In this document: piece after piece, positions 18,212 to 21,654 of the stretch
Layout: every line of letters starts with the position of its first letter
Position numbering within the stretch: the first letter of the stretch is position 1
Assembly (NCBI GenBank): GCA_030324005.1
Contig: JARDVH010000059.1
Span: 86,662,370-86,726,369 of the forward strand
Source of the DNA: Negaprion brevirostris
Lineage: Eukaryota
Reading direction: 5' to 3'
DNA length: 64,000 nt
Program-made: the position numbers and the translations under genes
The notes under the pieces: generated by a model
The model's database searches: none
What the model saw: only the letters and a program-made list of their open reading frames with translations
What the model was told of the DNA's origin: nothing

Positions 18212-21200
18212 CTGCCCCGGGGGAAGGACCAGATGATGCTGATAGCGGGAACGAGAGCAGAAGTGGAAGCGAGGAAACCCACATCTGTGAGAAATGCTGT
18301 GCAGAATTCTTCAAGTGGTCTGACTTCATGGAGCATCAGAAGAATTGCACTAAGAATCCACTAGTCCTGATCGTGAATGACGAGGAGGCAGCGCGCTCAG
18401 AAGACTTCCTCGAGCCTTCTCCCGCCAGTAGCCCAAGCGACCAAGGGGAGAGTGAAGCTGCGGAAGAGAGCAATCCGCTGGAGGGAAATGACAGCTCCGA
18501 GGTGAAGAGCACAGAGCAAGACGAGCCGATGGAGGTGGATGCTTCCGCCGACAAAGGTTACCAGAATCAAGGGACCTCCAGTGCTGCTACTTCGCTACCT
18601 CAGATTCCCGAATCATCTTCCATGACCAACTATAACATGCCAAACACTAACGTGACTTTAGAGACTTTGCAAAGTACAAAGGTGGCGGTAGCGCAGTTTT
18701 CGCAGGACACACGCTCTAACAGCCCGAGTTCAAACAGTGGGGTATCCACCATTGCCATCCCGATGATTCTAGAGCAGCTGATGGCCCTGCAACAGCAGCA
18801 ACTCCATCAGCTCCAACTGATCGAACAAATCCGCAACCAAGTGGCAATGATGACTCCACAAACATTGCACCCTTTAAACCCCTCAACATCTTCCCAAGGT
18901 ACCTCCGTATCTGCAGCTAGCCAGCACGTTTCATTCAGCGAGCATTCTTCGAACCCCTTGTCAGCTGCTATTTCAGCCTCGGGAGCAGGGCAGGCATCCA
19001 GTATCCACCCTTCTGCCTTTGATAGCTCACAGCAAGTAACACAGCCTGCCTCTGGGGCCAGCACTCCTGTTTTGCCCAGCAGTGTATCTCCCAGATCAGA
19101 ACCCATCTTGCCCCCAGCTACGAGTGGAGTTTCCTCTTCCCTGACTCCAAGTTCCAGCTCAAATACAAGTAACACCTCCTCGCAGTTACAGTACTCAACA
19201 TCATCACTTGGACATGGCAATCTTCTCAGCCCAGCTTCCAGCATGCCGAATCCACTGCTACCTCAGAACACATCAAGTAGTGTGATCTTCCAAAACCCAC
19301 TGGTCAGCATTGCTGCAACGACTAATGCTCTAGACCCTCTGGCTGCCCTTATGAAACATCGCAAAGGCAAACCACCCAATGTTTCCGTATTTGATCCCAA
19401 AACAAGCTCAGAAGATCCATTTTTCAAGCATAAGTGTAGGTTTTGCGCTAAGGTCTTTGGAAGTGACAGCGCGTTACAAATCCATCTCCGTTCCCATACT
19501 GGGGAGAGACCATTTAAGTGTAACATTTGTGGAAATCGTTTTTCCACCAAAGGCAATCTTAAAGTTCACTTTCAGAGGCATAAAGAAAAATACCCTCACA
19601 TCCAGATGAATCCATATCCAGTCCCTGAATACCTTGATAATGTACCTACAAGCACAGGCATCCCATACGGGATGTCCTTGCCACCAGAAAAGCCAGTGAC
19701 AACCTGGTTGGACACCAAGCCTGTGCTGTCAACCTTACCAACTTCAGTTGGATTACAGTTGCCTCCAACCCTGTCAAGTATTACCAGTCTGGCTGAGTCC
19801 CCAGCTGTGACTCNNNNNNNNNNNNNNCCCCAAAGGCCATCTCCTCCATCAAGCGAATGTGCTTCTTTGTCACCAAACATGAACAAAAATGATTCAAGCA
19901 TTCCAATAACCGCAGAATCCCCCCAGTCAATTAATGGCGGTAATGTGGTTCCCATCGTTCAAGGTTTAAACGTACCTACTTCAAGCTTCAAACCTGTAGA
20001 GAACTGCGCAACTGGACAGTCAGTTTCCTCCGCTCTGTGCTCGACCACATCTTCAGCTTCTGTGGACAATGGAGTGAGCAGCATTCCTACAACCCTCCCA
20101 AGCCCTCTGCTTCCCATTATATCTGGTCAGTTTAAAGCAAAGTTCCCATTTGGCGGCCTACTCGACTCTATGCAAACATCCGAGACCTCAAAGTTGCAAC
20201 AGCTGGTGGAGAACATCGACAAAAAGATGACTGACCCCAACCAGTGCATTATCTGTCACCGCGTCCTCAGTTGCCAGAGCGCTCTGAAAATGCATTACCG
20301 CACACACACGGGCGAGAGGCCATTTAAGTGCAAAATCTGTGGCCGGGCTTTTACCACCAAGGGCAACCTAAAGACACATTTTGGTGTTCACCGAGCAAAG
20401 CCGCCTCTCCGAGTGCAACACTCTTGCCCCATTTGCCAGAAGAAGTTTACAAACGCAGTGGTTTTACAACAGCACATTCGCATGCACATGGGTGGCCAGA
20501 TTCCAAACACACCTTTACCCGAGGGCTTCTCAGATAGCATGGATACAGACCTAACCTGTGATGAAGTAAATGCTGAACTGATGAGCAATTATCCCGATGA
20601 CGAGCTGATGGATGAGAACTCAATGGACGAGGAGGCAGAATTGAACATCACCACGACCGAGTCTTCGAAGCAATTGTTATGTTATTCTGGCTCTTTACCA
20701 AATTCCCCTCCTTCGGTCATTTCCAGCATTGCCGCCCTGGAGAACCAGATGAAGATTATAGACTGTGCCCTGAGCACGCAGCAGCGATCTGGCTTGAAAT
20801 CTGTCGAGAATGGATCCATGGAGAGCGATCGCCTGACTAATGACTCCTCCTCCGCTGTGGGTGACTTGGAAAGTCAGAGTGCGGGTAGCCCAGCAATGTC
20901 CGAGTGTTCCTCTTCAATGCAGGCACTGTCACCCGTNNNNNNNNNNGAGCCACATGAGACATCAGTGAAATCAGAAAAAGCGGACAGCCCGTCCGCTCAC
21001 CGAGAGAACGGAGGTGCACTAGATCTGACAGCCAACCTGGGACGGCCGATCATCAAAGAAGAGGCTTTTAGTATGCTGTTCCCCAACCAAGAATGTGGTA
21101 AGTTGAAAAGTACTGTTTGTAGTATCTGTGGCAAACCTTTTGCTTGTAAAAGTGCATTGGAAATTCACTACCGCAGCCATACTAAAGAGCGTCCATTTCT

Positions 21201-21654
21201 TTGCACAATCTGCAATCGTGGTTGCTCCACTATGGGTAATTTAAAACAGCACTTACTGACGCACAAGATGAAAGAACTTCCTTCTCAGTTATTTGAACCC
21301 AACTCCACTCTAGGTCCCACCCAAAGTACTCCTAGCCTGGTCACCAGCACAGCACCAACCGTGGTCAAAATGGAAGTCAATGGTCACAGCAAGCCGATCT
21401 CCCTAGGTGATGGTACGCAGGTTCCAGTTGGTATACAGGCTCCATCTGCACCACAGACAGCCATGAGTCCAGGTATGACACCCATTCTGGCACCGCCACC
21501 TCGTCGGACACCCAAGCAGCATAACTGTCCATCCTGTGGGAAGACCTTTTCTTCTGCAAGTGCTCTTCAGATCCATGAGCGCACACACACTGGTGAAAAG
21601 CCATTTGGCTGCACAATCTGTGGCAGAGCTTTTACAACAAAAGGGAATCTTAAG
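18212..21654 (+). CDS. sall3: Sal-like protein 3, coding exon 2 (C2HC finger, Q-rich dimerisation region, C2H2 clusters 1-3 and most of cluster 4)
   Basis: 1176-aa ORF. Acceptor tttttgatttcctag|CTGCC (AG 18210-18211, phase 1) and donor CTTAAG|gtaaga (GT 21655-21656, phase 0). Motifs [46 protein letters not shown] boxes [10 protein letters not shown] and [10 protein letters not shown], and the SALL3-type cluster 3 [34 protein letters not shown]. Two small N gaps lie inside. Confidence 0.96.
21098..21313 (+). other. In-frame alternative intron (exitron) inside sall3 exon 2, encoding zinc-finger cluster 3
   Basis: Consensus donor G|GTAAGT at 21098, acceptor ccactctag|G at 21313, 216 nt = 72 codons with no stops, branch-like TACTGAC at 21254-21260. 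Confidence 0.8.

What the first reader, a model, noticed from the sequence alone, without database searches (positions are those of the whole stretch)
21098..21313. In-frame exitron that toggles exactly one double zinc finger of Sall3
Seen: a perfect donor G|GTAAGT (21098) and acceptor ctctag|G (21313) inside the coding exon enclose 216 nt (72 aa) containing all of cluster 3 (CSICGKPF..H to ..KQHLLTH). Removal rejoins GAA TGT G|GT CCC in frame (E-C-G-P). A TACTGAC branch-like site (21254-21260) is written into the LLT codons of the finger helix, and this cluster has a deviant SAL box (STMGNLKQH). A competing AG at 21288 would frameshift. Recalled and needing verification: human SALL3 has an isoform lacking about 72 aa at this position. 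Inference: a dual-coding splice switch conserved since the gnathostome ancestor that changes DNA or partner binding.
Basis: partly seen in the sequence, partly recalled or inferred. Interest (0 to 1): 0.7.

Follow-up and report, generated by a model that had tools for sequence, protein, structure and literature searches.

The report
Optional zinc-finger exitron in shark Sall3
A 216-base stretch inside the main exon of a shark's Sall3 gene is likely spliced out to drop one pair of zinc fingers, a switch already present in public gene models from sharks to primates, while the related gene Sall4 has a permanent intron at the same two points.

Summary
G|GTAAGT (21098) and CTAG|G (21313) enclose 216 in-frame bases holding all of zinc-finger cluster 3 (ZFC3) of Sall3. 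The motifs alone could be chance, but public models settle it: 43 of 96 listed Sall3 isoforms lack exactly these 72 residues, from sharks to rodents, and primates show it too. The same donor joined to the last exon gives a truncated two-cluster protein (12 of 96). The isoform is therefore on record; I recall, but could not read, a 1996 Xenopus report of four-, three- and two-double-finger transcripts. No reads were laid, so splicing in this species is inferred. The branch-point claim is weak. Not found in print: in this genome Sall4 has a 6.4-kb constitutive intron at the same two codons and no ZFC3. Sall1 keeps the donor but lacks the acceptor (0 of 119 three-cluster forms). ZFC3 codons are unusually alike between Sall1 and Sall3 (29/39 versus 68/159). 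The paralogues likely partitioned an ancestral splice choice.

The parts
18212..21654 (+). Large coding exon of Sall3 (3443 nt): N-terminal finger, Q-rich region, ZFC1-ZFC3 and most of ZFC4
   Evidence: best hit is a shark sal-like protein 3 at 94%
21098..21313 (+). Exitron, 216 nt, phase 1, 72 codons, GC 0.40 against 0.52 in both flanks
   Evidence: exact deletion of residues 962-1033 in annotated isoforms
21095..21103 (+). Internal 5' splice site GTG|GTAAGT written in Cys-Gly-Lys-Leu codons; serves both the three-cluster and the two-cluster form
   Evidence: Gly-Lys in 191 of 192 SALL3 records, next residue always Phe, Cys or Leu
21118..21264 (+). Zinc-finger cluster 3 (double C2H2) with deviant SAL box
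21254..21260 (+).
   Evidence: 54 nt from 21313, 29 nt from 21288; same offset in Sall1 but largely forced by the protein
21286..21288 (+). Competing CAG; use would frameshift; no listed isoform uses it
21311..21313 (+). Internal 3' splice site (TAG|G) written in Leu-Gly codons, weak pyrimidine tract (10 of 16)
   Evidence: Leu-Gly in 191 of 192 SALL3 records
21526..21654 (+). ZFC4, the AT-rich DNA-binding cluster, completed by the last exon
   Evidence: function from PMC9672407 and PMC7895904 (passages)
21655..41897 (+). Constitutive phase-0 intron (AAG|GTAAGA ... TTAG|GT), 20.2 kb
41898..42329 (+). Coding part of the last exon; entered from the 21098 donor it is read in another frame and stops at 41924-41926 (two-cluster form)

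Best explanation
The 216-nt stretch is likely an exitron of Sall3: an internal part of a coding exon that is either kept or spliced out, with its splice sites written into the Gly-Lys-[Leu/Phe/Cys] and Leu-Gly codons that flank zinc-finger cluster 3. A strong internal donor (21098) competes with the normal donor at 21655. Three outcomes follow: donor ignored, four clusters; donor joined to the weak nearby acceptor (21313), three clusters in frame; donor joined to the last exon (41898), a frameshift and a stop 8 codons later, leaving two clusters with no ZFC4 and, because the stop lies in the last exon, probably no nonsense-mediated decay. Shown: the sites, the frames and the three forms in public models of orthologues. 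Inferred: that this shark makes them, that the ratio is regulated, and the function. My committed reading of function is that the three-cluster form keeps the main AT-rich DNA reader (ZFC4) and drops an accessory, weaker-binding module, giving a SALL4-like layout. The two-cluster form would lose AT-rich targeting while keeping the N-terminal repression and Q-rich interaction regions.
For: 8 of 120 homologues lack exactly residues 962-1033. Of 96 full-size Sall3 cluster members listed, 43 are three-cluster, 40 retained, 12 two-cluster and 1 other; without the cluster seeded by a short form the counts are 30, 40, 11 and 1 of 82. The IKEE-to-EVNG distance is 33 or 34 residues in 51 records without ZFC3 and 105 or 106 in 143 with it, a difference of 72. 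5 of 14 primate and 7 of 14 rodent members are three-cluster. Curated NP_ records of X. laevis (P0174) and human (P0648) keep ZFC3. Residues at both sites fit the base requirement in 191 of 192 SALL3 records, whereas the acceptor residue varies in SALL1 (Leu 168, Ile 32, Val 16, Met 3, unmatched 16 of 235). Exitron GC is 0.40 against 0.52 in the flanks and 0.37 in the next intron. ZFC3 keeps the base-reading Ile, Thr, Gly and Asn positions of ZFC4 but has Met for a backbone-contacting Lys (mapped from PMC9672407). It is the least conserved cluster: 36-47 of 50 against 49-50 of 50. It is not depleted of missense variants in humans (VdVp 1.29, PMC9838217).
Against: No reads were laid on the junction, so nothing here shows splicing in this species or any tissue regulation. 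Nearly all short forms are predicted (XP_) models; their read support was not visible, and models can be propagated by homology or chosen because the donor is strong. Most ray Sall3 members listed show no three-cluster form (0 of 14 in that cluster), and birds show few (2 of 14). The branch point is not established. Low GC is partly a domain effect: third-position GC is 0.375 in the exitron, 0.385 in ZFC1 and 0.372 in ZFC4. No binding data for ZFC3 were found.
Confidence: 0.88

Rival explanations
1. It is in practice a short ordinary intron that is often left unspliced. The three-cluster form is the working protein and ZFC3 is a decaying passenger.
For: Several species are listed with the three-cluster form under the plain gene name or as isoform X1 (Hemiscyllium, S. 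canicula, Vombatus, Petaurus, Gracilinanus). A review describes chick and mouse Sall3 as lacking the cluster (PMC5892016). There is no missense depletion in human ZFC3, and decay is faster in cow, dolphin and dog (39, 36 and 42 of 50).
Against: 47 of 50 residues are identical from shark to coelacanth, lungfish, frog and turtle, and the frame is open with length fixed at 72 codons in nearly all records. Curated frog and human records keep it.
Confidence: 0.08
2. The short forms are gene-prediction artefacts around chance GT/AG motifs, and the stretch is never spliced.
For: The motifs are common; 42 of 3000 synonymous recodings have both sites at these codons; the evidence is mostly predicted models.
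Against: The same junction recurs across all sampled jawed-vertebrate groups and the same donor feeds a second junction. SALL1, with the same donor but no acceptor, shows 0 of 119 such models. A Logan-derived member of the skate Sall4 cluster (P0696) reads as the donor-to-last-exon join.
Confidence: 0.04
3. The base-level conservation of ZFC3 between Sall1 and Sall3 reflects something other than splicing control, such as an exonic enhancer or an old gene conversion. This would leave the exitron real but remove one support for the paralogue history.
For: Sall1 lacks the acceptor yet shares the constraint along the cluster; only one paralogue pair in one genome was compared.
Against: The conserved run is strongest at the donor-proximal end (first 9 comparable codons identical). 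Amino acids in ZFC3 differ more than in other clusters (39 of 49), which recent conversion would not give. No unusual RNA fold was found.
Confidence: 0.3

Closest known systems
Exitrons (Marquez et al. 2015, PMC4484396; abstract and passages read, supplements not available)
   Same: Internal part of a long coding exon, GT-AG, no stop when kept, length divisible by 3, GC between exon and intron, removes a domain.
   Different: Donor is strong rather than weak; it also splices to the last exon; the event is conserved across jawed vertebrates and mirrored by a true intron in a paralogue. I could not see whether SALL3 is in their list.
Xenopus Xsal-1 splice forms (Hollemann et al. 1996, PMID 8734496; citation seen in a reference list; paper not held; content recalled)
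   Same: Recalled to report transcripts with four, three or two double zinc fingers, matching the three forms here; X. laevis and X. tropicalis records show these forms.
   Different: I could not check the junction positions in the paper; this locus is the shark orthologue.
SALL4 lacking ZFC3 (PMC9672407, PMC9838217, passages)
   Same: Same layout as three-cluster Sall3; 33 residues from IKEE to the conserved Lys in both, with the junction at the same residue.
   Different: In Sall4 the loss is fixed: a 6382-nt intron with no detectable ZFC3 relic.
SALL4A/SALL4B isoforms (PMC9838217, PMC7895904, passages)
   Same: Alternative splicing changes the number of finger clusters in a SALL protein.
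   Different: SALL4B drops ZFC1 and ZFC2 and keeps ZFC4; here ZFC3 alone, or ZFC3 with ZFC4, is dropped.

Membership tests
Exitron (Marquez 2015) | Internal to a protein-coding exon, no stop codon when retained | tested here: met
   Open frame 18118-21669
Exitron (Marquez 2015) | Canonical 5' and 3' splice sites | tested here: met
   G|GTAAGT and CTAG|G
Exitron (Marquez 2015) | Branch point | tested here: inconclusive
   Best consensus match is 54 nt upstream with three AGs between; weaker candidates at 17, 22 and 26 nt
Exitron (Marquez 2015) | Both junction reads and exonic reads in this species | not tested
   No reads were laid on the stretch
Exitron (Marquez 2015) | Both spliced and retained forms on record in orthologues | tested here: met
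   43 spliced and 40 retained of 96 members; both forms within single species such as C. punctatum, S. torazame, X. tropicalis, Protopterus, Macaca; mostly predicted models
Exitron (Marquez 2015) | Typical traits: 3n length, long host exon, GC below exon and above intron | tested here: met
   216 nt; 3443-nt exon; GC 0.403 against 0.496 for the exon and 0.374 for the intron
Exitron (Marquez 2015) | Typical trait: weaker splice sites than constitutive introns | tested here: inconclusive
   Acceptor tract 10 of 16 pyrimidines against 12 of 16 at the last exon; donor not visibly weak; no splice-site scoring model was run
SALL3 orthologue | Closest named relatives are Sall3; four-cluster layout; Sall1 and Sall4 lie elsewhere in the genome | tested here: met
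   94% to a shark Sall3; paralogues on C193 and C121 match sall1a at 99% and sall4 at 94%
'Splicing memory' origin (exitron borders at former intron positions) | Introns at one or both borders in paralogues or orthologues | tested here: inconclusive
   Sall4 has one intron whose two ends coincide with both borders, replacing the cluster rather than flanking it; outgroup gene structures were not available

The most novel reading that the evidence does not exclude
The ZFC3 splice choice predates the split of the vertebrate SALL genes, and the paralogues divided it up. Sall3 kept all three outcomes. Sall4 fixed the spliced state: the exitron became a constitutive multi-kilobase intron and ZFC3 decayed away, which explains why SALL4 lacks ZFC3. 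Sall1 lost or never had the nearby acceptor and fixed inclusion, while keeping a live donor and base-level constraint across the cluster. Reported 'losses' of this cluster in chick and mouse Sall3 would be spliced cDNAs, not losses.
Probability: 0.6. Interest if true: 0.6.

Novelty: already known. Interest (0 to 1): 0.4.

Why it matters
The isoform itself is on record, so its value is modest. What may matter is the family view. A domain difference between SALL4, SALL1 and SALL3 that papers list as a plain fact maps to one pair of splice sites at the same codons, a clear candidate case of exitron-to-intron conversion and isoform partition after genome duplication. It also means that studies of 'SALL3' need to state which of three proteins they used. 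A natural two-cluster form without the AT-rich DNA reader would be a candidate built-in antagonist.

Tried and rejected
Run search: no RNA holder listed (24 runs, none on record as RNA); no evidence either way. No reads were laid, which leaves splicing in this species open. Search of 50%-identity representatives: swamped by many-finger proteins; a motif filter picked 7 four-cluster SALL-like proteins among the 150 listed. One lamprey gene (5 of 6 members read) and one hemichordate protein all keep ZFC3, and the lamprey has no Gly-Lys at the donor position, so no outgroup evidence for the splice was obtained. Tree of 23 proteins with ZFC3 removed: only the quick tree finished; Sall1, Sall3 and Sall4 each form one side of a branch, but Sall3+Sall4 sisterhood is unresolved under the long hemichordate branch and no clade test was run, so the order of events is not shown. 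Synteny check with PF16209: 14 matches, none near the three Sall loci; uninformative. ZFC3 relic in the Sall4 intron: best E 0.10, opposite strand; rejected, with 359 N inside. RNA structure as the cause of codon conservation: folds as low as observed in 67 and 165 of 200 codon shuffles; rejected. Branch heptamer as a selected signal: largely forced by the protein; not supported. Papers: searches; 'exitron' with 'SALL3' gave 0 papers; no listing or passage that I saw described the Sall3 junction or the Sall4 correspondence. Subscription papers (Hollemann 1996, Sweetman 2006, Parrish 2004) were not held, and the exitron paper's supplements could not be read, so absence from print is not established. 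Earlier scan findings: none.

Full report
Observation. The window holds most of a shark Sall3 gene: a 3443-nt coding exon at 18212-21654, a 20.2-kb intron, and the last exon from 41898. The best protein hit is a shark sal-like protein 3 at 94%. Inside the large exon, TG|GTAAGT at 21097|21098 and CTAG|G at 21313|21314 enclose 216 nt in phase 1, covering both fingers of ZFC3, and removal reads E-C-G-P. The motifs alone are not decisive. GTAAGT occurs 12 times on this strand of the window, and 42 of 3000 synonymous recodings place both sites at these codons. The branch-like heptamer is 54 nt from the acceptor with three AGs between and is mostly dictated by the protein, so I do not accept it as the branch point.

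Orthologue isoforms. 8 of 120 homologues, from six cartilaginous fishes, lack exactly residues 962-1033. That search favours retained forms because the query contained the cluster. Cluster look-ups list at most 15 members each; after dropping four 49-residue fragments, 96 Sall3 members remained: 43 three-cluster, 40 retained, 12 two-cluster and 1 other. Leaving out the cluster seeded by a short form gives 30, 40, 11 and 1 of 82. The marker distance differs by 72 between 51 records without and 143 with the cluster. Three-cluster forms occur in sharks, an electric ray, coelacanth, lungfish, Xenopus, birds, marsupials and rodents, and in 5 of 14 further primate and 7 of 14 further rodent members. 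The human short form was not among those listed. These are mostly predicted models whose read support I could not see.

A third outcome. Twelve members end a few residues after the donor, with the peptide obtained by joining the donor to the last exon in a shifted frame. The window predicts the same ending, with a stop at 41924-41926. Such a protein has ZFC1 and ZFC2 but no ZFC3 or ZFC4. From memory, Hollemann et al. 1996 reported Xenopus Xsal-1 transcripts with four, three or two double fingers. I saw only its citation and could not read it.

Protein-level signs of the splice sites. Gly-Lys stands at the donor in 191 of 192 SALL3 records, and the next residue is always Phe (114), Cys (60) or Leu (18), all of which can start with the T needed at +6. 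Leu-Gly stands at the acceptor in 191 of 192, whereas SALL1 varies there. These records are not independent: birds are over-represented.

Paralogues in this genome. Two searches each returned three loci, identified as Sall3, Sall1 (C193) and Sall4 (C121). Sall1 has GGT AAG TTG at the same codon but ATC GGT at the acceptor position, so no AG. Of 119 SALL1 cluster members none is three-cluster; one chimaera model uses the same donor to reach the last exon. Sall4 has a 6382-nt phase-1 intron whose donor is 11 residues after IKEE, as in Sall3, and whose acceptor lies the same distance before the conserved Lys. Annotated Sall4 proteins join there, and 0 of 31 carry ZFC3. One unnamed Logan-derived member of the skate Sall4 cluster reads as the donor-to-last-exon join (P0696). 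No relic of ZFC3 was found in the intron. Between Sall1 and Sall3, identical residues use identical codons in 29 of 39 cases in ZFC3 against 68 of 159 in the other clusters (Fisher p 0.0006). This survives stratifying by degeneracy (6 of 20000 permutations) and exceeds third-base bias (14.5 expected), and is not explained by RNA folding. It rests on one paralogue pair. Against a firm history: the quick tree does not resolve Sall3+Sall4, the synteny check was uninformative, and the one lamprey gene seen lacks Gly-Lys at the donor and shows only retained forms. ZFC3 itself is ancestral in bilaterians (PMC5892016, section 12 read; hemichordate protein), so Sall4 lost it.

Mechanism. A strong internal donor competes with the normal one, and a weak acceptor 216 nt on competes with the last exon's. 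ZFC4 is the main AT-rich DNA reader in SALL3 and SALL4 (PMC9672407, PMC7895904; passages). ZFC3 keeps the base-reading positions but swaps a backbone-contacting Lys for Met and a conserved Phe for Cys. It diverges faster than other clusters and is not depleted of missense variants in humans (PMC9838217; passages). I therefore infer that it is an accessory module whose removal tunes rather than abolishes binding, while the two-cluster form would lose AT-rich targeting. None of this function was tested.

What is known. It meets the tested defining features of an exitron (PMC4484396; abstract and passages), with the branch point inconclusive and reads untested. A review reads the missing cluster in chick and mouse Sall3 as absence. 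Other birds and rodents encode it and show both forms, so spliced cDNAs are the likelier cause; chicken and mouse Sall3 were not examined. Ten searches showed no paper on the junction or on the Sall4 correspondence, but key subscription papers and the exitron supplements were out of reach. PMC8699250 (passages) lists all clusters for SALL3 without this isoform.

Verdict. Real, conserved and already on record as an isoform; interest 0.4. The paralogue partition is the part worth following (probability 0.6, interest 0.6).

Noticed in passing
window 41642-41785: A cryptic exon about 110 nt upstream of the last exon matches alternative C-termini in annotated shark Sall3 isoforms (85-86% identity to P0122 and P0129); it is entered from either donor and truncates the protein.
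   Followed up: partly
G000 C193:36482628 (minus strand; L007): Shark Sall1 keeps an identical G|GTAAGT donor at the ZFC3 border without the nearby acceptor; a chimaera model (P0367) splices it to the last exon.
   Followed up: yes
G000 C121:32151545-32157926 (L004): Sall4 constitutive intron with both ends at the codons of the Sall3 exitron borders.
   Followed up: yes
G000, whole genome: Two finger-cluster searches returned only Sall1, Sall3 and Sall4; no Sall2 was found at the thresholds used.
   Followed up: no
P0617, P0620, P0628, P0632: ZFC3 of SALL3 is markedly more diverged in dolphin, cattle and dog (36-42 of 50 against shark) than in other tetrapods, suggesting relaxed selection.
   Followed up: partly
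P0561 (lamprey): The lamprey Sall ZFC3 also has Cys in place of the SAL-box Phe, like Sall3, though the quick tree places it with Sall1.
   Followed up: no
window 1-18211: No N-terminal Sall3 exon was found in the window by motif or tblastn; the first coding exon probably lies upstream of it.
   Followed up: partly
P0461: An unnamed 5807-residue protein with about 77 C2H2 fingers in repeated clusters topped the representative search.
   Followed up: no
window 15611-16289 and 21983-22280: Long CA/GT-rich simple-repeat tracts in the introns flanking the large exon.
   Followed up: no
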